A stretch of 64,000 bases of DNA from the NCBI RefSeq assembly GCF_965641715.1, contig NZ_OZ282453.1; one strand, given 5' to 3'. Positions 1,385-61,186 of the stretch are shown one piece after another (position 1 is the stretch's first letter; each line of letters begins with the position of its first letter). The DNA is from Escherichia coli (GTDB taxonomy: Bacteria > Pseudomonadota > Gammaproteobacteria > Enterobacterales > Enterobacteriaceae). Position numbers and translations under genes: made by a program. The notes beneath the pieces were generated by a model. It ran no database searches. It had not been told where the DNA came from and saw only the letters and a list, made by a program, of their open reading frames with translations.

Positions 1385-4300
1385 TTATTTCTCCTCCGCG
1401 TCTTCAGTCTCTGCAGCAACGGCGTTAATTGTCACCTTCACAGGCGTCATTTCGTACCCGCCATACGTCAGTGCGTTGAATGTGAACGTATAGACACCTG
1501 GCTTGCTGGTACTAAATGTACGCGTGATTTTCCCACCTGAGAAATGGTCAGCCTTCGACGGCAGGAATTGATAATCCTTCTCCGTCACTCCTTCCGGAGC
1601 CTCAATGTCGACCCACATACTTCCTCCTACGGGATTGACTCCCGCCATCAGGGTAACCGTCATTGTTGCAGTAGTCTTCCCGTCCGCCACCAGAGAATCT
1701 ACACGTTCTGGAGATGCGGCGAGCACCGCGTTTTTATCATCCGCGACGAATTTAGATTCAGCAGTTTTCGTCGATACCTGACCGTTGGCCTGTTCCACTT
1801 TCGCCGTGAGTGTATATGTCGCTGCGATAGTGGTAGAGCCGGTGAAAACAGCCTGTCCTTGCTCATTAGTTTTCGCCGTCCCTTTAGGATCCAGAACTAA
1901 ATTTTCCGAGCTGGCAGTCAGCGTCACGTCGCTATCCTTCAACAGGTTGTTATTGGCATCAGTCACCGTAACTTTATACGTTTGTTTGGTTTTGCCATCC
2001 GCCACTGCACGGTTGCCAATCACCTCAATACTGGAGATGGTCGCCGTAGTCTTATCGGCCACAAACGTTACAGACTGCGCATTTGAAGGCTGGTCATTTC
2101 CTGCCGACGCCGTGATCTCATACGTTCCGGCAGTCACGGAGACCACTTTCAGTTCCGCTTTACCCTCCTTGTCGGCGTTCACCATGATATTACCGTCTGC
2201 AAGCGGTTTGACGCCCCGAGGCAGATTAAAGACGACCACAGCGCCAGGCAGAAGGTTGCCGTATTGATCCTTAACCGTTGCCGTCAGCGTAAAGGCATCA
2301 TTGTCGTTTGCCACTTTTGGCGTGCTGCCATCAACCTCCAGGGTCGCCTGACCGGTACTGAAATCCGCCTTGAATTTCACCGTAACCGTCTTCTGAGCAT
2401 TATTCACTGAGGCCGTGATGCTGTGTTCCCCGGCAACCGTTGACATAAGCTCAATGTCCACTTTCCCTGCCGCATTGGTTGTTACTGTATTCCCCGTCTT
2501 GCTGGTCACACCCTGCGGTAAAGTCAGCGTAACTTCTTGCCCCTGCAACGGGTTACCATAGCTGTCCACGACGGTCAGGGTTATCTGGTTAGCAGACTGT
2601 CCATTAGCCAGTTGGTTATTAACCTTCACTGTCATATCACGAATCTCAGCCTTAGATGCGTCACCTGCAACGTTCAGCACCAGTGGCTGAGCAACGGCAT
2701 TTTGGCCGTTCACTCGCGGCATCACAGACAACTGACCCGCGGCAGATCCCAGCGTTAAGGTCGACACGTAGACCCCATTACCTTTCTCTGTCCAGTTTCC
2801 TGCTGAAGGACGCTCACTCCCCGTGCTGGCGGCACCGCTAAACACTGGTGCATCTGGCTTCAGCCCGGTGACCGGGTTCCCGTACGCATCCTTCACGGTG
2901 AAGGTGAGTTCCGTCGTCGTTTTGACGGTCGGAGCCTTATTGTCCGCAACAAGCGTAGAGTTCGCTGATGACATCTCTCCGGCGATGACCGTCAACTGCG
3001 CGGCTTCGGTGGCTGCTGGCTGGCCGTTGAAGAGAGGCATGACGCGAAGCTCGCCCGTCTTTCCACCTGTAGTCAACGTAGCAACATAGGAACCGTTACC
3101 TTTTTCGGTCCAACTGGAAACGGTCGCCCCTTCAGAGGCGGTCCCCGTCAAACTTGCCGACAACGCAAGACCACTGATAGCGTTGCCATGCGCATCTTTC
3201 GCCACCAGCGTCACGGTTGTGCTTTCGCCGGCTTTTACGTGATCTTCTGCGACAGAGACTTTCGACTGGTTTGAAGATAACGCATCAGCCACCACGGTTA
3301 CTTTTGCCGCATTTGCTGCCGCATTCTGTCCATTTAGCTTCGGCATAACTTCTAATTCACCCGCCGTAGAGCCGAGAGTAATCTGCGCAGTCCACGTCCC
3401 ATCACCATTATTTGTCCAGCCCGATGCCGTAGAACCTTCAGCAGCGGCACCCGCTAATGACGGCGCTTCCGGCGTGAGGCTGGTCACAGGGTTGTCATAG
3501 GCATCTTTTACCGTCCAGATTGCCGTAACTGTACCCCCAACCACCGGTTTATCAGGATTCAGGGTGATGGACGAATGTGCTGCATCAAGCGGCCCGGCAA
3601 CAAACTTCAGCGTTTGTTGTAATGTGCCCAGCTGATACTGCTCGCTGAAAGCACGCACAACAACGTTTCCGGCACGGGTCGAAGAAACCGTGGCGCTGTA
3701 AACGCCTGGTTTTATTTCCGAAATGGCACCAACGGTTACACCATTAGTGTCTTGCGGAACAAATCGCAAGCGGCTGGCTTCTCCCGTCACCGGATTACCC
3801 TCGGAGTCCACCGCAGTCAACGTCAACGTATAGGCTTGCTGACCATCAGCAACCACGTCACCTGACGGCTCGTTAGCGCTCAGGGTGGAGTTTGCCACAT
3901 CCATCATCGTGGCCCGCAGTTCTGCAGTGACGGTTTTGCTCATGCCATCAACGCTAACAGTAATCGTTGCCTCACCTGACTGCGTTCCGGTAGTAAAGAC
4001 AGACTGATACACCCCTGCTTCAGTTTCGGTGAACTCACCCAGTGTTGGCTTTGCCTGTGATTTAGTGGCCTTCAGGGAACGAGTCACAATATTTCCAGCC
4101 GGTTTGAAAGTTAGTTCAGTCTTGATCTGATCTTTCATGCCCGTGACTGGCTGGCCCTCGGCGTCGCGCAGAGACAGCACCAGCGGTTTTTGCTCATTAC
4201 CGTTAGCAAGCATTTGAATACGGCTCTGACCGTCAAGCGTTAACGCCGTGCGATCGGCGCTCATACCTGCTCCGGTAATGACCACCTCTGTCTGCACGCG

Positions 4301-43983: not shown

Positions 43984-44023
43984 GGTAATTACCATGTAGT
44001 CATCATATTCCAGGGTAATTACC
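43984..44023. promoter_or_regulatory. Two copies of the perfect 10-bp palindrome GGTAATTACC (43984-43993 and 44014-44023); candidate operators
   Basis: Read directly; between the divergent left operon and the RHH ORF. Confidence 0.4.
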
Positions 44024-44197
44024 ATGTCAACACCACAAGAGAAACGTTCCCCACCATTCCAAATGCGTCTTACCGACGATTTTAGGTTGCAACTCGAAAA
44101 AGAAATGCGCAAAGATGGAGATAGCGCGTTGGCAACTTGGATTAAAAGAATTTTACGTAAAGAACTACAATCACGCGGGATTGACCCTAAAGGTTAA
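44024..44197 (+). CDS. Ribbon-helix-helix (Arc/MetJ-like) candidate repressor, 57 aa
   Basis: MSTPQEKRSPPFQMRLTDDFRLQLEKEMRKDGDSALATWIKRILRKELQSRGIDPKG; beta-strand plus two helices pattern; not in the ORF track. Confidence 0.45.
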   Translation: MSTPQEKRSPPFQMRLTDDFRLQLEKEMRKDGDSALATWIKRILRKELQSRGIDPKG

Positions 44198-44229
44198 TCA
44201 GTTAAATATTACTAACTATCAATTAAGGC

Positions 44230-44520
44230 TTAGGGAGTAGGTGATAATCTATTCCCTTTATTAATTGCTCTTGCCTTATTTCTCATCCCCTCAAACTGTT
44301 GACCTGAGTTTTCTTCAAACCCATCTCGCCACTTATAATAATCAGCAGCGCGCCATCGGGACATCCGACCTATTTTTATAGGTTTTGGAAAGCGATTCAG
44401 AGAAATCAATCGATAAATCCATTTGTCACTTAATAAACAATCGGAAGTAATAAACTTCATATCGATCAGAGAATCCATTGAAGGTCGTTGCAAAGTAGTA
44501 TTATCATGTTTAGATAACAT
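44230..44520 (-). CDS. alpA: AlpA-family prophage regulatory protein
   Basis: Motif IYRLISLNRFPKPIKIGRMSRWRAADYYKW typical of AlpA; true start may be an internal Met. Confidence 0.65.
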   Translation of the reverse strand: MLSKHDNTTLQRPSMDSLIDMKFITSDCLLSDKWIYRLISLNRFPKPIKIGRMSRWRAADYYKWRDGFEENSGQQFEGMRNKARAINKGNRLSPTP

Positions 44521-44645
44521 TCATCATTCTCCGTTTATCTAAGTCTATTGGCTTCAACACGGAAAATTAAAACATAGGTTATAAATGAGAAAAATGTGAC
44601 TAATGAAAAAAATCCAAAATCATTAGTCACAATAATTGTTAACAT

Positions 44646-45470
44646 TTAGTTAAACTTAATGTTTTTCATGCAACTACGTAGCAAGCTAACAACAGTATCA
44701 TAGCTCAAAGGTGGTTCTCCGGTCTTAGGCCAGAACTCACTGGCATGTTGAAAAAGATAATCAGCTATCGCTGCTGGACTCTCTCTTCTTAGCCTCATAT
44801 CACGATGATAGAGCGAAATAATAGCCATGAGTATTTCAGTTCGAGGAACAGCATGTTTTTGTTTTTGCGCCTCAGATTGTGATTTATATTTATTGGCGTT
44901 TTTTATCCGTTTTTGTTCGCATAAGACTATATCAATGAATTTTTGAATCTGTACCTTTGTAATCCACAAAACCTCAAAAAGATAATAATTTTCTTTTTCA
45001 TCATAATTTACATAAAGAATTACCTTACAATTTATATTAGGCGTACCCGCCAGTAGAAAATGAATAGGCCAGGAATCCGGTTGCCCCTCATGCTTAACTA
45101 ACAGATCTTTATATTCATAATCAACAGCCCATAAACCGGATATAAAGCATCGAATAAAACCATTTTTATCAATTAAATTATTTTCATCAGGGATTCTTAT
45201 AGAGCTTAAGTCTGACAACATAATATTGCCATTTCTATCTCGTGGTAAATATTTCAGATTAGATAAGAACTCATCCAGTTGACCATCAATCTTCAAACCA
45301 CATGAAACATCATACTCATCATCATGGAATTCCATGCATAGCTCTACATCTCGTTCTCTGGCAAACCAGAGTATATCCTTTTCACTACAACCAATTTTTT
45401 CTGAAGCTTCATCCAACTGGTAGTAATCTCTGAGCAGAGAATCAGTATTATTAATTTTTAAAATATTCAT
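44646..45470 (-). CDS. Hypothetical protein (274 aa), AT-rich island cargo
   Basis: Long ORF; start overlaps the integrase stop by 4 bp; no motif recognised. Confidence 0.5.
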   Translation of the reverse strand: MNILKINNTDSLLRDYYQLDEASEKIGCSEKDILWFARERDVELCMEFHDDEYDVSCGLKIDGQLDEFLSNLKYLPRDRNGNIMLSDLSSIRIPDENNLIDKNGFIRCFISGLWAVDYEYKDLLVKHEGQPDSWPIHFLLAGTPNINCKVILYVNYDEKENYYLFEVLWITKVQIQKFIDIVLCEQKRIKNANKYKSQSEAQKQKHAVPRTEILMAIISLYHRDMRLRRESPAAIADYLFQHASEFWPKTGEPPLSYDTVVSLLRSCMKNIKFN

Positions 45471-46657
45471 TTATGAGTACCAATTAGCTCAGATAAATAA
45501 TTAGCATACCATTGCATCATTTCTCTTCTCCCTTCGAGATATTGGGCATGGTTATAAATTCCACGAATAGAGTTTTTGTCCGAATGAGCAAGCTGGGTTT
45601 CAATCCAAGCGCTGTTAAATCCTTTCTCATGTAGAATTGTACTCATCGTATGCCTGAAACCATGTCCCGTAACACGCCCTGCATATCCAATACGTTTAAA
45701 CACCTGATTGATGCTTGCTTCACTCATAAATTTGCTAGGATCGTTGCGTCCAGGGAACATCAGCGGGTAGTTCCCAGTTAGTTCTTTCAAACTTTTGAGA
45801 TGGGATAATGCTTGTTTTGGTAACGGGACAATATGGCTCCTACGCATTTTCATACGTTCTTTTGGGATCTCCCACACCGCATTATCAAAATCCACCTCTC
45901 GCCACTCACCTGCTCGTAGTTCTCCAGTTCGTAGACCTGTCAGGATAAGTAAATGCGCCCCCAACAATACAATTGGACTTCCTGAATAAGAATTAAGGGC
46001 ATTAAAGAACTCCGGTAGTTCGTTGGCTTTGAGGAATGGATAGTGGACTGCTTCATGTCCTTGCATCGCACTGGCAAGATCCGGTGCCGGATTGTAGATT
46101 GCCCTACCCGTTACGATGGCATAGCGAAAAACTTCACCGCATCGCTGACGGACTTTCTTCGCTTTCTCCATAGCGCCTCGAGCTTCTATCAACCTCAGAA
46201 CTTCAAGCAGTTCAAGGGGCTGAATATCAGCTATAGGTCTGTGCCCAATATGCGGAAAAATGTCTTTCTCAAATGCCTCAATGATGTCGGAAGCATAGCC
46301 CTCAGACCATTTGGATGATTTCATTTTGTGCCACTCTAACGCCACTTCTCTGAATGGGTTAAGTGTCTCAATCGCTGCGTTTAAAGCCTGCTTTTTGGCT
46401 TTTTTGACTTCGCCGGGATCTTCACCTGCTGCGAGTAGTTTCTTTGCGTCTTCTCGTTTTTGTCTGGCATCAGCAAGTGTGACTGTTGGATAAACACCAA
46501 AGGACAATCGTTTCTCTTTACCAGCAAAACGGTATTTCATACGCCAGTAACGCGAGCCATTAGGTTCGACCTGAAGGTATAGGCCACCTCCATCAAACAG
46601 CTTATAGCTCTTCTCTTTTCCTTTCGCAGCTTCAACCTTGCGGGCATTCAGCATCAT
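45467..46657 (-). CDS. int: Tyrosine integrase (P4-type), tRNA-adjacent
   Basis: N-terminal SYKLFDGGGLYLQVEPNGSRYWRMKYRF; C-terminal catalytic HxxR...Y (HGFRHT ... GIYNHAQYLEGR); ORF extends to 46726. Confidence 0.85.
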   Translation of the reverse strand: MMLNARKVEAAKGKEKSYKLFDGGGLYLQVEPNGSRYWRMKYRFAGKEKRLSFGVYPTVTLADARQKREDAKKLLAAGEDPGEVKKAKKQALNAAIETLNPFREVALEWHKMKSSKWSEGYASDIIEAFEKDIFPHIGHRPIADIQPLELLEVLRLIEARGAMEKAKKVRQRCGEVFRYAIVTGRAIYNPAPDLASAMQGHEAVHYPFLKANELPEFFNALNSYSGSPIVLLGAHLLILTGLRTGELRAGEWREVDFDNAVWEIPKERMKMRRSHIVPLPKQALSHLKSLKELTGNYPLMFPGRNDPSKFMSEASINQVFKRIGYAGRVTGHGFRHTMSTILHEKGFNSAWIETQLAHSDKNSIRGIYNHAQYLEGRREMMQWYANYLSELIGTHK

Positions 46658-46821
46658 TGGGGGCACATTTCCTAGACCGAACAGAACATGCCCCTGATTG
46701 TGCCCCCAACCGCGTGTTGATTTCAAGAGACAAGGGTTGACCTCAAACGTATGAAAACAACGTAATATATATGTTTTTAAATGATTTTGTTGATGTGGGT
46801 TGACTTGGGAAAACTAGGTGA

Positions 46822-54789: not shown

Positions 54790-55336
54790 TTATCCTTCGA
54801 TAAATGCCATCCCTGTAAACGTTCGTCGCGGGTTGCCACGTTCAATCTGGTGATGGAACATTCGCCGCTGCGATTTCAGCGCCGCGCTATTTTCCTGTTG
54901 CTGTTGCTCCAGCTTCCAGGCAATCAGCAATCGCGCCAGCCGTTTGTTAGCATGCTGGCTGCGTTCTGACTGAACCTTCACGCTAATCCCGGTTGCCAGA
55001 TGCGTGGCGCGTACCGCCGAGTCGGTTTTATTGACATGTTGACCGCCCGGCCCCGACGAACGCAGCGTGTCAGGATAACGCCCGGCTTCGGTTTCCAGCA
55101 CCGTTACCGCGACGTCTTGTCGGGTAAAAACGACCAACAGAGAAGAACGCTGCGCCAATCGGGTAGCCGCGTCCGGGGTGTAAATCTGGCATCCCCACTA
55201 CGCGCTGCATGTTGGGTAAATTTGCCGTGGTGTGTAATTGTTGGATCGCTAAACTCTCGATCCACAGGTCATCAGATGCGATGGTAAATACCGCATCGGA
55301 TAAGGGACGAATATATTTGCCCATGTACCATTCCAT
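54790..55336 (-). pseudogene. prfH: Remnant of an rtcB-like / prfH module: RtcB N-terminal fragment fused out of frame to the PrfH C-terminal part
   Basis: 55070-55336 encodes an RtcB-like N-terminus ([18 protein letters not shown]); 54790-55158 encodes the release-factor GGQ region ([10 protein letters not shown]); overlapping, frame-discordant ORFs. Confidence 0.55.
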
Positions 55337-55641: not shown

Positions 55642-56094
55642 TTAATGTTGCGGTTTATATCGCATATAAAAATTAGTAAACCAAGCTCCACGGCATTCAA
55701 CGCGCTGCTGCTTAACTGTCTGAAAACCATAACGTTCAAAAAAGGGTTTTGCGGTTATGCTGGCGTCCACCGTAAGTTCGGATTCAGACTTAATCAAAGG
55801 TTTTAACAAAGCGCTGGCAACCCCACGGCGGGTGTATTCAGGGTCAACAAATAACATATCGATATAATGTTCAATGCGGGAAATAAAACCAACCGGTTGT
55901 GCATTAATGACTGCAACCCGCACTTGTGATTTCGCGAGTTTCTCCTTCCAGCGAGATTCGTCAATCTGCGCCCAGGCGGCAATTTGTTGTGGTGAATAAT
56001 GCTGACTGGCGGTCATCATAACCGCTCTAATGAAAATAGCGCATAGTTGCTGAAAATCGCCAGGCTGATAGTTTCTTATTTGTATGTTATTCAT
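55642..56094 (-). CDS. yafP: GNAT-family acetyltransferase
   Basis: 150 aa from MNNIQIRNYQPGDFQQL; the ORF track includes a 20-codon upstream extension. Confidence 0.85.
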   Translation of the reverse strand: MNNIQIRNYQPGDFQQLCAIFIRAVMMTASQHYSPQQIAAWAQIDESRWKEKLAKSQVRVAVINAQPVGFISRIEHYIDMLFVDPEYTRRGVASALLKPLIKSESELTVDASITAKPFFERYGFQTVKQQRVECRGAWFTNFYMRYKPQH

Positions 56095-56123
56095 AATGTA
56101 AGTTTTGTTTTGAATACCCGCAT
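56091..56123 (-). pseudogene. yafO: yafO toxin remnant: 10 codons (MRVFKTKLTL, stop) between yafN and yafP
   Basis: ATG 2 bp after the yafN stop encodes MRVFKTKL (as the K-12 YafO N-terminus, by recollection) then terminates; the ~130-codon body is absent. Confidence 0.5.
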
Positions 56124-56125
56124 CC

Positions 56126-56419
56126 TTATTCCTTAAAGTCATTGAAATCATCATCCGTCATATCATTAAGATATTGTTCAGCGCGGCGTGTAATTTCCTC
56201 TAATCTTGCAGCACTTGGACGGAAGCGCGCCTTTATGGGCTTTTTCTCCTCTTGTTCAGCAAGCATGTCCATTAACGCTTCGAATGCGCTGGCACTTAAG
56301 AGATATCCTGCGGGGCGATTATTAGAAAGAACCGCAACCGGTTGATCAATAAAGTATTTAGCTGGGTTTTTACGTAACTCAGTAATATTGACCGATTTTT
56401 CAGCGAGAATTCGATGCAT
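56126..56419 (-). CDS. yafN: Type II antitoxin YafN
   Basis: 97 aa MHRILAEKSVNITELRKNPAKYF... Confidence 0.85.
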   Translation of the reverse strand: MHRILAEKSVNITELRKNPAKYFIDQPVAVLSNNRPAGYLLSASAFEALMDMLAEQEEKKPIKARFRPSAARLEEITRRAEQYLNDMTDDDFNDFKE

Positions 56420-56470
56420 ACAGTGATCCCCTCATAATAATGCACACTAGAATAGACATAATAGTATACA

Positions 56471-57526
56471 TCATAATCCCAGCACCAGTTGTCTTTCCAT
56501 TTGAGGGTCAAGCAACGTCACATGCAGCCCCACCAGTCGCACACCGCGCCCACCGCGGCGTTCATCCCAGGTTTTACGCGCGGTGGCGATTAGATCAGCT
56601 TTATTCAGCCGCGGCCAGACGTGCTCCTGGGTGGTTTGCTGAAAATCGTCGAACTTTAATTTCACCCCCTGGCGAGCAATCAGTAAATCAGGTTTTACCT
56701 TTGCCAGACGGCGTTCAAGTTCCGGATACAGCCGCTCGATAATCGCTTCACATTCAGACCAGTGATGAATATCTTCCGCCATCGTGCGTTCCACGCCGAC
56801 GGATTTTCGTAACCGTTCGCTGTTAACATCGCGCTCGTCAATCCCCTGACTACGCTCCCACAAAATGCGGCCAAATTTGCCAAAGCGTTTAAGCAGAATC
56901 ACCAGATCACACTTTTGTACATCACCGCAGGTCCGCAGCCCCATCGCTTCCAGTTTTGCCGCCGAGACTTTGCCGACGCCGGGGATTTTTGCCAGCGGTA
57001 AGGTTTGCAGAAATGCCGGAACTTCTGCCGGAGTAATCACAAACTGGCCGTTGGGTTTATTCATGTCGGAGGCGATTTTGGCGAGAAACTTTACTGGTGC
57101 CACGCCCGCAGACGCCGTCAGTTGCAGCTCGCTGAAAATCGTCTGGCGGATTTCCTGGGCGATGAGGGTCGCAGAACCGTGGCAATGGACGCTGTCGGTG
57201 ACATCGAGATAAGCCTCATCCAGTGACAACGGCTCAATGCGCGAGGTGTAGCGCGAGAAGATTTCACGGATATGATTTGAGGCTTCTTTGTAGGCGTCAA
57301 AGCGCCCCGGAAGCAAGGTGAGATGTGGGCATAATTTGAGCGCCATCCCTGTCGGCATAGCGCTGCGTACGCCAAATTTACGCGCGGGATAATTGGCGGT
57401 GCTGATCACCCCCCGACGTTCGCGGCTGCCGCCAATAGCAATAGGGATATCGCGCAGGGCGGGATTGTCGCGCATCTCCACTGCGGCGAAAAAGCAGTCC
57501 ATATCCACATGAATGATTTTACGCAT
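56471..57526 (-). CDS. dinB: DNA polymerase IV (Y-family)
   Basis: 351 aa [22 protein letters not shown]... Confidence 0.95.
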
Positions 57527-57596
57527 TACTCACCTCTCAACACTGGTAAAGTATACAGTGATTTCAGGGTTTGAGAAATGCGTAAAGATTCAGCAT

Positions 57597-58340
57597 TTAG
57601 CGCGTTCGCTGCGAAAGCACCTGCTGCTTATCCAGCTTTTGCACCAGCGGCTGCACCACTTTATCCCCATGCTGACCAAAGTATTGATACAGCGTATCGG
57701 ACGCACTTTTGGTCAGCACCATAATCTCAATACGCCGATTGCCCGCGCTTTGCGGATTTTTGGCATCCAGCAGCATCTGGTCAGCCATTGCGCTTACCTG
57801 CATCACTTTATCTTCCGGCATTCCGGCCTCTTCCAGCACCCGACGAGCCGAAAGCGCGCGATCGCCCGAAAGGTTCCAGTTGTTGTAGATATTGTTTTTG
57901 TAGGCCATCGCATCGGTATGCCCGGTAATAATAATTTTGTTATCGAGCGAGTCGAACACTGGCGCGAGCTCCACCAGCAGCGTTTTAAAGAACGGCATAA
58001 TCTGCGCGCTGCCGCGTTCAAACATATTGCGGTTCTGGTCGTCTTTAATCAGCACGCGTAATCCCTGCGGGACAATCTCCATCTCCAGATTCGCTTCCAT
58101 ATGCGCATCACGGGCAATGGTGTTGATACTGGTTGCCAACTCGCCAAGCTCGGTGGCGGATTTCTTCTTCAGCAGCGCCGTTTTCTCATTCACATCACGC
58201 GCTTTTTTCTCCGTCTCTTCCGGCACCGCCACGGTGGCAGGTTTTGGCGGATGAGACGGGCTGATTTTATTTAACGGCGACAGCCCACCACCGTTAAAAA
58301 TCGACTGCCCGTGCAGCGCGGCGATAATGCTTTCACGCTC
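57597..58340 (-). pseudogene. mbhA: MotB-like (LafU/MbhA) fragment lacking N-terminal TM region; Flag-2 remnant
   Basis: C-terminal OmpA-like domain (IIITGHTDAMAY...NRRIEIMV); the N-terminal 50 codons of the ORF are antisense readthrough of the flhA-like sequence. Confidence 0.6.
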
Positions 58341-60066
58341 GGATTTACTGACGCTGTTGACAATCAACTTTATCGTCGTCACCAAAGGGGCCGAGCGTAT
58401 TTCCGAGGTTTCTGCCCGCTTTACCCTGGACGCGATGCCCGGCAAACAGATGGCGATTGACGCTGACCTTAACGCCGGGTTGATCAACCAGGCGCAGGCG
58501 CAAACCCGGCGTAAAGATGTCGCCAGCGAGGCCGATTTCTACGGCGCGATGGACGGGGCGTCGAAGTTTGTGCGCGGGGATGCCATCGCCGGGATGATGA
58601 TTCTGGCGATCAACCTGATCGGTGGTGTCTGTATCGGGATCTTCAAATACAACCTGAGCGCTGACGCTGCCTTCCAGCAATATGTGCTGATGACCATCGG
58701 CGACGGGCTGGTGGCGCAGATCCCTTCCCTGCTGCTCTCCACCGCGGCGGCGATTATCGTCACCCGCGTCAGCGACAACGGCGATATCGCCCATGACGTA
58801 CGCCACCAACTGCTGGCAAGCCCGTCGGTGCTCTACACCGCTACCGGAATTATGTTTGTGCTGGCGGTAGTGCCGGGGATGCCCCACCTGCCGTTTTTGC
58901 TGTTCAGCGCCCTGCTTGGCTTTACCGGCTGGCGGATGAGCAAACGCCCGCAGGCGGCGGAGGCGGAAGAGAAAAGCCTCGAAACGCTGACCCGTACCAT
59001 CACCGAAACCAGCGAGCAACAGGTCAGTTGGGAGACTATTCCGCTGATCGAGCCTATCAGTTTAAGCCTCGGCTACAAGCTGGTGGCGCTGGTGGACAAA
59101 GCCCAGGGCAACCCGCTCACCCAGCGTATTCGCGGCGTGCGACAGGTGATATCCGACGGCAACGGCGTGCTGCTGCCGGAGATCCGCATTCGGGAAAACT
59201 TCCGCCTTAAGCCCAGTCAGTACGCTATTTTCATCAACGGCATTAAGGCCGATGAAGCAGATATTCCGGCGGATAAACTGATGGCCCTGCCCTCCAGCGA
59301 AACCTACGGCGAGATAGACGGCGTGCTGGGGAACGACCCGGCGTACGGGATGCCGGTGACCTGGATCCAGCCCGCGCAGAAGGCGAAGGCACTAAATATG
59401 GGGTATCAGGTGATCGACAGCGCCAGCGTGATTGCCACCCATGTGAATAAGATTGTACGCAGCTATATTCCTGATTTGTTTAACTATGACGACATCACAC
59501 AGTTGCATAACCGTTTGTCGTCGATGGCACCGCGCCTGGCGGAGGATTTAAGCGCGGCGCTGAATTACAGCCAGTTGCTGAAAGTGTACCGCACACTACT
59601 GACCGAAGGCGTTTCCCTGCGCGACATCGTCACCATCGCCACCGTGCTGGTCGCCAGTAGCGCGGTGACCAAAGATCACATTCTGCTGGCGGCCGATGTG
59701 CGCCTGGCGCTGCGGCGCAGCATTACTCATCCGTTCGTTCGCAAACAGGAGCTGACGGTGTATACGCTGAATAATGAGCTGGAAAATCTGCTCACCAACG
59801 TAGTGAATCAGGCGCAACAGGGCGGCAAAGTGATGCTCGACAGCGTGCCGGTCGACCCGAATATGCTCAACCAGTTCCAGAGCACGATGCCGCAGGTGAA
59901 GGAGCAGATGAAAGCGGCGGGGAAAGATCCGGTGCTGCTGGTGCCGCCGCAGTTGCGTCCTTTGCTGGCGCGCTATGCAAGGTTGTTTGCGCCGGGGCTG
60001 CATGTGCTGTCGTATAACGAAGTGCCGGACGAGCTGGAGTTGAAGATTATGGGGGCCTTGAGTTGA
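58327..60066 (+). pseudogene. fhiA: FlhA-like (LfhA/FhiA) export-gate protein lacking ~130 N-terminal residues; Flag-2 remnant
   Basis: Similarity begins at TINFIVVTKGAERISEVSARFTLDAMPGKQM (FlhA ~residue 130); no N-terminal TM1-3; junction with mbhA near 58330-58350. Confidence 0.6.
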
Positions 60067-60227: not shown

Positions 60228-60977
60228 CTACAAAATCGTCTCTTCCGTCAAAATCCGCCGCGCGCCTAAAAAATGATCCTGCCAGAAAGGTTCAGCTAAC
60301 CGACTTACCCGAATGGTTTCCCCGGTGCGCGGTGACTCAATAAACTGACCGTCGCCCAGATACACCCCCATATGGTCGGCAATCTCGCGGCTGTGGATAT
60401 GGAAAAACAGCAAATCTCCCCGGCGCAGGTCGTTATTCGCCACAATCGTTGCCCGATGGTAGTGATACATCTCATTAGCCGTACGCGGGAGCTTCGCCTC
60501 GAGGATCTTGTTGTAGGCATAAAAAACCAACCCGCTACAGTCAAAGCCTTTATCAGGCCGCGTGCCGCCCCAGACGTAAGGCTTGCCAAGCTGCTGCTCC
60601 AGGCGGTGAATCGCCACTTCGGTGATGTTATGCAGATGGTCGCTGCTTAAAAAGTGGTTATTTTCCGCCAGCGCCTGCCAGCGTCTGTCACTCGCCTTGA
60701 GCGGCGCAGGAAACCATTCTGGATGCTGTTTTATCTGTTCGCGGTTGTGCTGGCGCAGCGCCCTTCTGCTTTCGGCATTGCCTTCCACAATATAGCTGGC
60801 CTGCTTTTTCAGATGGGTTTGGTACTGTTTTAATAAACGCGCACGGTTTTGCATCCGCTGGCGGGCGGCGTAGCTGAAAGAGATATGTGATGTGGTGGCG
60901 CAGGCAAATGAAGAAAACGGCAAGCAAAGCAACAGTAATCCCGACAACACAAAAGAGGGAATCGACGGCAAAGACAT
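60228..60977 (-). CDS. yafL: NlpC/P60-family lipoprotein peptidase
   Basis: 249 aa from MSLPSIPSF...; catalytic Cys context GFDCSGLVFYAY. Confidence 0.8.
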   Translation of the reverse strand: MSLPSIPSFVLSGLLLLCLPFSSFACATTSHISFSYAARQRMQNRARLLKQYQTHLKKQASYIVEGNAESRRALRQHNREQIKQHPEWFPAPLKASDRRWQALAENNHFLSSDHLHNITEVAIHRLEQQLGKPYVWGGTRPDKGFDCSGLVFYAYNKILEAKLPRTANEMYHYHRATIVANNDLRRGDLLFFHIHSREIADHMGVYLGDGQFIESPRTGETIRVSRLAEPFWQDHFLGARRILTEETIL

Positions 60978-61186
60978 TCTCAATAATGGCTGGTCATGCA
61001 TTGATGTTGCAGTGTATCCTGGCCCGTACCTGAACAAACTTAATAAACCATTATTATAAAATTAATAAATATATTTCAGTTTATTATGTAAAAACATCCG
61101 TTTATTAAATTACTCATGGATTGTCGCTGTTGCTCATTTGAGCTACAATTCAAGCTGAATAAATATACAGCACAGGAGATACCCCA

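What the first reader, a model, noticed from the sequence alone, without database searches (positions are those of the whole stretch)
56091..56419. yafO toxin gene reduced to a 10-codon stub, leaving yafN as an orphan antitoxin next to dinB
Two bp after the yafN stop an ATG opens MRVFKTKLTL and stops, and yafP starts 30 bp later. From memory, K-12 has a ~130-codon yafO between yafN and yafP that begins with the same residues. The toxin gene body appears to have been deleted cleanly while the antitoxin stays intact.
Basis: partly seen in the sequence, partly recalled or inferred. Interest (0 to 1): 0.55.

Follow-up and report, generated by a model that had tools for sequence, protein, structure and literature searches.

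The report
yafO toxin deleted, yafN antitoxin orphaned
In this E. coli SOS operon a 379-bp deletion has removed almost all of the yafO toxin gene and left its antitoxin yafN and the neighbours dinB and yafP intact; it is a real but rare variant of a well-known variable locus and an ordinary case of toxin-antitoxin decay.

Summary
On the minus strand the order is dinB, yafN, a 10-codon ORF, then yafP. YafN (97 aa) is 100% identical to K-12 YafN. The short ORF (MRVFKTKLTL*) keeps the first 25 nt of yafO. Relative to K-12 and other four-gene operons, 379 bp are missing: yafO nt 26-399 plus most of the 9-nt spacer.

The stub's TGA overlaps the yafP ATG as ATGA, the same stop/start geometry as the known two-gene dinB-yafP form.

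The allele is not an artefact. The identical junction occurs in 13 other fetched loci, two from complete genomes (GF43, MEI003), in six local haplotypes.

It is rare: 2 of 5,426 complete E. coli genomes, against about 52% four-gene and 48% two-gene.

The junction carries a C found in no intact operon, and no intermediates were found. This favours one origin spread by recombination, although the flanks are strongly diverged.

The 2011 survey of this operon described only the four- and two-gene forms. This is a third, minor allele: a degenerate TA locus with an orphan antitoxin. Interest is low to moderate.

The parts
57541..57560 (-). LexA box of the dinB promoter (CACTGTATACTTTACCAGTG), identical to K-12
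   Evidence: the sequence upstream of dinB is the same as in K-12 MG1655 locus L004
56471..57526 (-). dinB (DNA polymerase IV, 351 aa), intact
   Evidence: ORF; NCBIfam NF002677 545 bits (cut-off 256); this exact protein is very common in public assemblies
56471..56477 (-). First copy of the 7-nt direct repeat ATTATGA (end of dinB, includes its TGA)
   Evidence: the two-gene form (L003 and others) is the exact product of deletion between this copy and the one at the yafP start
56420..56470 (-). dinB-yafN intergenic region carrying the proximal, YafN-autoregulated yafN promoter described for K-12
   Evidence: the window's variants (for example TATTCTAGTG) also occur in intact four-gene operons (L025, L023); promoter properties are from PMC2814082
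56126..56419 (-). yafN antitoxin gene, 97 aa, intact; protein identical to K-12 YafN
   Evidence: 100% identity, 1 synonymous difference; NF007300 196.7 bits over 1-97/97; exact protein found in 56,294 index blocks
56091..56123 (-). Remnant of yafO: 10-codon ORF MRVFKTKLTL*, keeping the yafO Shine-Dalgarno region, ATG and first 25 nt; its TGA overlaps the yafP ATG
   Evidence: the junction is identical in L002, L005, L014-16, L020, L039-44
56098..56098 (-). Junction base C, private to the deletion allele (reference has T on both flanks: CTTAT|TCGCC and TTTAT|ATTATG)
   Evidence: no intact operon among about 2,840 complete genomes has C at either position
56091..56097 (-). Second copy of the 7-nt direct repeat ATTATGA (yafP ATG plus stub TGA)
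55642..56094 (-). yafP (GNAT N-acetyltransferase, 150 aa), intact
   Evidence: NF007338 326.8 bits over 1-150/150; the exact protein is in 43 index blocks, and 19 of the 24 contigs read have the stub layout

Best explanation
This is a genuine, heritable deletion allele of the SOS-regulated dinB-yafN-yafO-yafP operon.

Shown:
- 379 bp covering yafO nt 26-399 and most of the yafO-yafP spacer are gone. The YafO ribosome-dependent mRNA interferase can no longer be made from this locus, which is a degenerate type II TA module.
- YafN, the Phd/YefM-type antitoxin, is left intact as an orphan.
- dinB, yafP and the dinB LexA box are unchanged.
- The stub keeps the yafO ribosome-binding region and start codon, and it ends in an ATGA overlap with yafP.

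Inferred:
- The operon still works as a three-gene SOS unit, dinB-yafN-yafP.
- YafP translation is probably still coupled to an upstream ORF, now the 10-codon stub. This is the same geometry as the dinB/yafP ATGA overlap in the two-gene form.
- YafN, which in K-12 represses its own proximal promoter on its own and is degraded by Lon, probably survives only as an autoregulator with no toxin to neutralise.
- The deletion most likely arose once, by slippage or illegitimate recombination at the short TTAT/TTA repeats. The junction C came from a later T>C change or from a second 15-bp slippage between the AACTTA repeats. Homologous recombination then carried the allele into several lineages, where it persists at low frequency as a neutral or nearly neutral step in TA decay.
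For: Sequence and alignment to K-12 and A30:
- Left flank shared through ...AAAACTTA, right flank shared from ATT-ATG, net loss 379 bp.
- YafN is identical to K-12, no YafO elsewhere in the window, LexA box intact.
- NCBIfam equivalog matches for YafN, YafP and DinB over their full lengths.

Reality of the allele:
- Exact junction in 2 complete genomes and in draft assemblies from three lineages.
- L014 and L020 are 100% identical to the window over 6,453 nt.

Single origin:
- All 13 fetched carriers, in 6 haplotypes, share the same junction including the C.
- That C is absent from both flanks in about 2,840 intact operons.
- Neither the T-version junction nor the 15-codon intermediate exists in 5,426 genomes.

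Locus lability and ATGA coupling:
- The two-gene form with its ATGA overlap is in about 48% of genomes (PMC3105422).

YafN biology:
- Two promoters, repression by the antitoxin, Lon dependence (PMC2814082).
Against: - The carriers' flanks are strongly diverged: 14-31 differences per 841 nt between groups, and only a 157-nt identical tract between the window and GF43. No flanking SNP is diagnostic of the deletion. A single origin therefore needs several nearby recombination events or great age, which sits oddly with a frequency of 0.04% in complete genomes.
- Translational coupling of yafP to the stub is inferred from geometry only. No Shine-Dalgarno sequence and no significant RNA structure were found.
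- Whether YafN is expressed or does anything in these strains is untested.
- Only 64 kb of this genome was seen, so a second YafO-family toxin elsewhere cannot be excluded.
Confidence: 0.82

Rival explanations
1. Recurrent deletion at a hotspot: the same 379-bp deletion arose independently in several lineages because the local short repeats (TTAT; AACTTA; TTA-A) direct slippage to the same end points.
For: - The junction sits in at least three deeply diverged local haplotypes, with SNPs within 50-80 nt on either side.
- Apparent linked SNPs turned out to be standing polymorphisms also present in four-gene operons.
- The locus is known to lose yafNO repeatedly by repeat-mediated deletion (PMC3105422).
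Against: - Every carrier has the same C at the junction, which a simple microhomology deletion cannot template. It is not present on either flank in about 2,840 intact operons.
- No T-version, no 15-codon intermediate and no alternative short-stub junction was found in 5,426 genomes.
- No carrier has a near-identical four-gene relative; the best are 99.2%, 98.4% and 97.4%.
Confidence: 0.2
2. The orphan YafN is kept by selection. It could act as a transcription regulator of the distal operon through its own promoter, or as a trans-acting neutraliser of YafO-family toxins encoded elsewhere (anti-addiction). On this view the deletion end points were selected because they preserve yafP expression.
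For: - The yafN ORF is intact in all six carrier haplotypes and identical in protein to K-12 in the window lineage.
- Carrier lineages are represented by tens to hundreds of index blocks of public assemblies.
- The stub ends in a precise ATGA overlap with yafP.
- YafN alone represses its promoter (PMC2814082).
- Multiple YafO-domain toxin groups exist in E. coli (PMC10790755).
Against: - About 48% of E. coli do without yafN altogether (PMC3105422).
- yafNO is essentially absent from natural plasmids. It is in 14 of 72,556 records; the seven 100% matches are large plasmids of K-12 or cell-culture origin (probably F-primes), and two records are chromosome-sized.
- The MEI003 lineage has two private non-synonymous changes (D89N, D91E) in the C-terminal tail, which looks more like relaxed constraint.
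- The allele is rare.
- The sequences are too few for a dN/dS test.
Confidence: 0.15
3. The three-gene form is the usual intermediate on the way to the two-gene dinB-yafP form: toxin lost first, then yafN plus the stub lost between the ATTATGA repeats.
For: - Both 7-nt ATTATGA repeats are still present around yafN plus the stub.
- Two-gene loci L017-L019 carry a yafP identical to the window's and are 99.1% identical downstream.
- Losing the toxin before the antitoxin is the safe order under the general logic of type II TA systems.
Against: - The two-gene product is equally reachable in one step from the four-gene form, as proposed in PMC3105422.
- L017-L019 differ from the window upstream (15 differences in dinB).
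- The stub allele is about 1,000 times rarer than the two-gene form.
- The end product would carry no trace of its route.
Confidence: 0.07
4. Sequencing or assembly artefact.
For: None found.
Against: - The difference is a 379-bp absence, not a homopolymer frameshift.
- The same junction is present in 13 other fetched loci from independent assemblies, two from complete genomes.
Confidence: 0.01

Closest known systems
Four-gene dinB-yafN-yafO-yafP operon of E. coli K-12 (McKenzie 2003; Christensen-Dalsgaard 2010, PMC2814082)
   Same: Same chromosomal position between lafU and the rtcB'/prfH'-pepD region. Same LexA box. Same YafN protein (100%). Same yafO ribosome-binding region, start codon and first 8 codons. 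yafP is intact.
   Different: yafO nt 26-399 and 6 nt of the 9-nt spacer are replaced by a single C. No YafO toxin can be made. The stub's stop codon overlaps the yafP start, whereas K-12 has a 9-nt spacer there.
Two-gene dinB-yafP operon of CFT073 and about half of E. coli (Gutierrez et al. 2011, PMC3105422)
   Same: Loss of the toxin by a short-repeat-mediated deletion. yafP stays co-transcribed with dinB. The stop of the upstream ORF overlaps the yafP ATG as ATGA.
   Different: There both yafN and yafO are lost between the ATTATGA repeats, and dinB itself abuts yafP. Here only yafO is lost, yafN stays, and the ORF abutting yafP is a 10-codon yafO remnant. Frequency is about 48% against about 0.04% of complete genomes.
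Orphan antitoxins and degenerate chromosomal type II TA loci in E. coli (for example the 950-genome survey in PMC10790755)
   Same: An intact antitoxin gene without its cognate toxin next to it. Such orphans are reported as abundant across E. coli sequence types.
   Different: That survey does not describe this yafN case or its junction. Here the lesion, its end points and its distribution are defined at base level.
IS1-disrupted yafO alleles (locus L029; complete genomes EC1 and 51489)
   Same: Another way in which yafN ends up without a working yafO at the same locus.
   Different: This is insertion and IS-mediated deletion, not a small internal deletion. In L029 yafP and the rtcB'/prfH' remnants are also gone.

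Membership tests
yafNO type II toxin-antitoxin module | Antitoxin gene yafN (Phd/YefM-type, 97 aa) present and intact | tested here: met
   100% protein identity to K-12 YafN; NCBIfam NF007300 196.7 bits, cut-off 99, over 1-97/97
yafNO type II toxin-antitoxin module | Adjacent downstream toxin gene yafO (about 132 aa, YafO family NF007377 / PF13957) | tested here: not met
   Only 25 nt (8 codons) of yafO remain and 379 bp are missing; no YafO-like sequence elsewhere in the 64-kb window (tblastn)
yafNO type II toxin-antitoxin module | Location inside the LexA-regulated dinB operon, between dinB and yafP | tested here: met
   Gene order dinB-yafN-stub-yafP with the LexA box identical to K-12; synteny with annotated K-12 and A30 loci
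yafNO type II toxin-antitoxin module | Proximal promoter upstream of yafN, autoregulated by YafN | tested here: inconclusive
   The region is present and its variants fall within those of intact operons, but promoter activity and repression cannot be tested in silico; the properties are known only for K-12 (PMC2814082)
yafNO type II toxin-antitoxin module | Toxin activity neutralised by the antitoxin | not testable with these tools
   No toxin gene is present at the locus; this would need expression experiments
Orphan antitoxin / degenerate TA locus | Intact antitoxin ORF with the cognate toxin gene destroyed in cis | tested here: met
Orphan antitoxin / degenerate TA locus | No cognate toxin elsewhere in the genome | not testable with these tools
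   Only the 64-kb window is available, and it has none; the whole genomes of carriers were not screened
Two-gene dinB-yafP fused operon (Gutierrez 2011) | yafN and yafO both absent, dinB stop overlapping yafP start (ATGA) | tested here: not met
   yafN is present (376 nt between the dinB stop and the yafP ATG, against -4 in the two-gene form); only the ATGA overlap geometry is shared, here with the stub ORF

The most novel reading that the evidence does not exclude
The yafO-deleted allele is an old polymorphism kept at low frequency. On this reading the orphan YafN has taken on a toxin-independent job, either regulating the yafN-yafP part of the SOS operon or neutralising paralogous YafO-family toxins. 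The deletion end points would then be a selected solution that removes the toxin while keeping translational coupling into yafP. That would make the allele a natural experiment in how an antitoxin is domesticated inside a DNA-damage operon.
Probability: 0.1. Interest if true: 0.45.

Novelty: new member of a known kind. Interest (0 to 1): 0.25.

Why it matters
The allele adds a third, minor form to a textbook variable operon that so far has been described only in four-gene and two-gene forms. It is a base-level example of a toxin being lost before its antitoxin in a chromosomal TA locus.

Carrier strains are natural delta-yafO, yafN+ backgrounds. They could be used to ask three questions: what YafN does without YafO, whether yafP translation depends on termination of an upstream ORF at the ATGA overlap, and how a small deletion allele moves between E. 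coli lineages.

It does not change the current understanding of TA systems or of the SOS response.

Tried and rejected
1. Standing polymorphism as the source of the junction C. Probes carrying C in the yafO-yafP spacer or at yafO codon 9 found no intact operon with either variant; the best full-length matches all keep the mismatch.
2. Intermediate alleles. The T-version junction gave no match. The 15-codon-stub probe matched only GF43 and MEI003, and only partially.
3. SNPs linked to the deletion. A T at -286 and Q82K looked specific to the stub in a first sample. That sample was biased, because loci L021-L030 had been retrieved by exact YafN identity. With unbiased four-gene loci, both variants also occur in intact operons (L033, L031), so they are not diagnostic.
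4. Relaxed constraint on the orphan yafN. Only the MEI003 lineage shows private non-synonymous changes (D89N, D91E). There are too few independent lineages for a test.
5. Anti-addiction against plasmid-borne yafNO. Only 14 of 72,556 plasmid records carry it. The seven 100% matches are large plasmids of K-12 or cell-culture origin (probably F-primes), and two records are chromosome-sized.
6. RNA structure around the yafP start in the three layouts. Nothing significant (z-scores -0.27 to +0.67).
7. Species-representative genomes. No carrier.
8. Metagenome contigs. No short-stub allele of any kind. The normal junction occurs in only 8 contigs, so this negative carries no information.
9. Strain typing from the literature. 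MEI003 and GF43 returned nothing relevant, so carriers were not assigned to phylogroups.
10. The MAFFT pairwise alignment mis-placed the terminal gap. The end points were instead defined by flush matching from both sides.

Full report
**What is in the sequence**

The genes lie on the minus strand.
- dinB runs 57526..56471 (351 aa). Its LexA box CACTGTATACTTTACCAGTG at 57560..57541 is identical to K-12.
- A 51-nt intergenic region follows, then yafN at 56419..56126 (97 aa).
- Two bases after the yafN TAA, an ATG at 56123 opens ATG CGG GTA TTC AAA ACA AAA CTT ACA TTA TGA (MRVFKTKLTL*), ending at 56091.
- yafP runs 56094..55642 (150 aa). Its ATG overlaps the stub's TGA as ATGA.

NCBIfam equivalog models match YafN (196.7 bits, cut-off 99, 1-97/97), YafP (326.8 bits, 1-150/150) and DinB (545 bits) over their full lengths. 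YafN is 100% identical in protein to K-12 YafN.

**Comparison with the reference operon**

In K-12 MG1655 and strain A30 the annotated order is dinB, yafN, yafO (399 nt, 132 aa), a 9-nt spacer, then yafP. The window matches the reference through the first 25 nt of yafO (...AAAACTTA) and again from the last 3 nt of the spacer (ATT-ATG). Between these lies a single C at 56098. The net loss is 379 bp.

The reference has T at both candidate break points (CTTAT|TCGCC... and ...TTTAT|ATTATG). Two routes fit the result:
- a 379-bp deletion at the 4-nt TTAT microhomology, followed by T>C; or
- a 364-bp deletion that leaves a 15-codon stub, followed by a 15-bp in-frame slippage between the two AACTTA repeats in yafO codons 7-13.

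No YafO-like sequence occurs elsewhere in the 64 kb (tblastn and blastn). Two small corrections apply: yafP does not start 30 bp after the stub but overlaps its stop, and the junction has a one-base irregularity.

**Not an artefact, and how common it is**

A 49-nt junction probe, which cannot seed on intact operons, finds exactly 2 of 5,426 complete E. coli genomes: GF43 (chicken meat, Switzerland) and MEI003 (veterinary-clinic environment, Switzerland). In both, RefSeq annotates yafN followed directly by yafP.

By comparison:
- about 2,844 genomes (52%) carry the normal yafN/yafO junction;
- most of the rest have dinB fused directly to yafP.

Exact-protein look-ups show the allele in many draft assemblies.

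| Protein traced | Index blocks | Contigs read with stub layout |
|---|---|---|
| Window's YafP allele | 43 | 19 of 24 |
| MEI003's YafN variant | 161 | 24 of 24 |
| GF43's YafP allele | 255 | 24 of 24 |

L014 and L020 are 100% identical to the window over 6,453 nt. All 13 fetched carrier loci have the identical 51-nt junction.

The window itself has no close relative among the complete genomes; the best match is 98.2-98.4% over 20 kb. The species-representative collection has no carrier. The metagenome scan was uninformative: 0 stub alleles, but only 8 contigs with the normal junction.

**One origin or several**

The carriers fall into six local haplotypes in three deep groups that differ by 14-31 positions per 841 nt. 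The window and GF43 are only 96.2% identical over 5 kb, with just 157 identical bases around the junction.

In yafN, yafP and dinB the carriers do not cluster. The window's flanks are 1-2 SNPs from the four-gene strain A30 but 9-15 from GF43. SNPs that at first looked linked to the deletion turned out to be standing polymorphisms in four-gene operons once an unbiased sample was added. This pattern would fit recurrence.

Against recurrence:
- Every carrier has the same junction C.
- Neither flank carries that C in about 2,840 intact operons.
- Neither predicted intermediate exists in 5,426 genomes.
- No carrier has a near-identical four-gene relative; the best matches are 99.2%, 98.4% and 97.4%.

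I therefore favour a single origin followed by recombination and local divergence, at roughly 0.7 to 0.2 over recurrence. This is an inference, not a demonstration.

**How it most likely works**

Shown: the toxin gene is destroyed, while the antitoxin, dinB, yafP and the SOS operator are intact.

From the literature on K-12:
- yafNO is transcribed from the LexA-controlled dinB promoter and from a proximal promoter just upstream of yafN.
- That proximal promoter is repressed by the antitoxin and de-repressed when Lon degrades YafN (PMC2814082; PMC7781912).
- YafP activity is harmful without Pol IV, which is the proposed reason the two genes stay co-transcribed (PMC3105422).

The window's proximal-promoter region differs from K-12 only at positions that also vary among intact operons.

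Inferred:
- The locus functions as a three-gene SOS operon.
- YafN acts at most as an autoregulator.
- YafP has no recognisable Shine-Dalgarno sequence in any layout, and its start region shows no significant structure. It is probably still translated by coupling to the upstream ORF that terminates at the ATGA overlap. That ORF is now the 10-codon stub, which keeps the yafO ribosome-binding region.
- The same ATGA geometry exists between dinB and yafP in the two-gene form (PMC3105422).

**Comparison with what is known**

Gutierrez et al. 2011 surveyed 98 genomes and the 72 ECOR strains. They reported only four-gene and two-gene operons, with group A mostly four-gene, B1 all two-gene, and B2 and D mixed. 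A yafN-only form is not mentioned there.

Orphan antitoxins are reported as abundant in E. coli generally (PMC10790755). This case is therefore a new instance of a known kind of event at a locus already known to be labile. It fails the membership test for a functional yafNO module because it has no toxin, and it fits the description of a degenerate TA locus with an orphan antitoxin.

An anti-addiction role against plasmid-borne YafO is poorly supported. yafNO is in only 14 of 72,556 plasmid records. The seven 100% matches are large plasmids of K-12 or cell-culture origin (probably F-primes), and two records are chromosome-sized.

**Verdict**

The finding is real, correctly interpreted and rare, but ordinary in kind. 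Its modest value lies in three things:
- the precise geometry of the deletion;
- the puzzle of an identical junction in diverged backgrounds;
- the availability of natural delta-yafO, yafN+ strains for experiments.

Noticed in passing
window 56471-56477 and 56091-56097 (minus strand): The yafN-plus-stub segment is flanked by a 7-nt direct repeat, ATTATGA. The same repeat flanks yafNO in four-gene operons, and the two-gene dinB-yafP form is the exact product of deletion between the copies. The 2011 paper describes the repeat only as ATGA (4 nt). The window could still make that second deletion (380 bp).
   Followed up: partly
window 55642-56154 (minus strand): The deletion leaves the yafP reading frame open upstream to an ATG at 56154, inside the 3' end of yafN. 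This gives a possible 170-aa N-terminally extended YafP (MMISMTLRNKDAGIQNKTYI + YafP). RefSeq annotates only the 150-aa form in GF43 and MEI003, and no ribosome-binding site was evident.
   Followed up: no
window 54790-55336 (minus strand); loci L001-L005, L021: Downstream of yafP the rtcB-prfH pair survives only as fragments (an 88-aa RtcB piece and a 122-aa PrfH piece). Related genomes show several states: intact in GF43, UM146 and L021, and differently truncated in K-12, A30, MEI003 and the window. Even the three stub-carrying lineages differ in this neighbouring lesion.
   Followed up: partly
window 57597-60066: This is the Flag-2 (lateral flagella) deletion scar, as in K-12. An N-terminally truncated FlhA-like ORF (58327-60066, + strand) overlaps lafU (minus strand). 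Some related loci (L008, L012, L019, L021, L027) instead keep Flag-2 genes (fliL, a sigma factor, motA, motB) upstream of dinB.
   Followed up: no
locus L029 (GCA_027274525.1) 3001-4103; complete genomes EC1 and 51489: This is another route to an orphan yafN. IS1 is inserted about 110 nt into yafO, and in L029 the rest of yafO, yafP and the rtcB'/prfH' remnants are missing up to pepD.
   Followed up: partly
locus L005 3804-4097 (MEI003) and L039-L042: The MEI003 lineage's orphan YafN carries Q82K, which is also a standing polymorphism in four-gene strains such as O157:H7. It also carries two private changes, D89N and D91E, in the acidic C-terminal tail. All 24 contigs read with this variant have the stub layout. 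This may reflect relaxed or altered constraint on the toxin-binding end, but it is a single lineage.
   Followed up: partly
window 44000-46800: A tyrosine-recombinase (integrase) ORF at 45467-46726 sits next to proA/proB, where K-12 has thrW and prophage CP4-6. Most of window 1-45000 therefore looks like an integrated island, and the repeated matches per genome suggest mobile or repeated elements there.
   Followed up: no
loci L006, L007, L010, L013, L005 (upstream of the FlhA-like remnant): Several related genomes, including MEI003, carry a hicAB toxin-antitoxin pair beside the Flag-2 scar, about 4 kb from yafN. The window instead has an NlpC/P60-family ORF (60228-61037) there, as does K-12.
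   Followed up: partly
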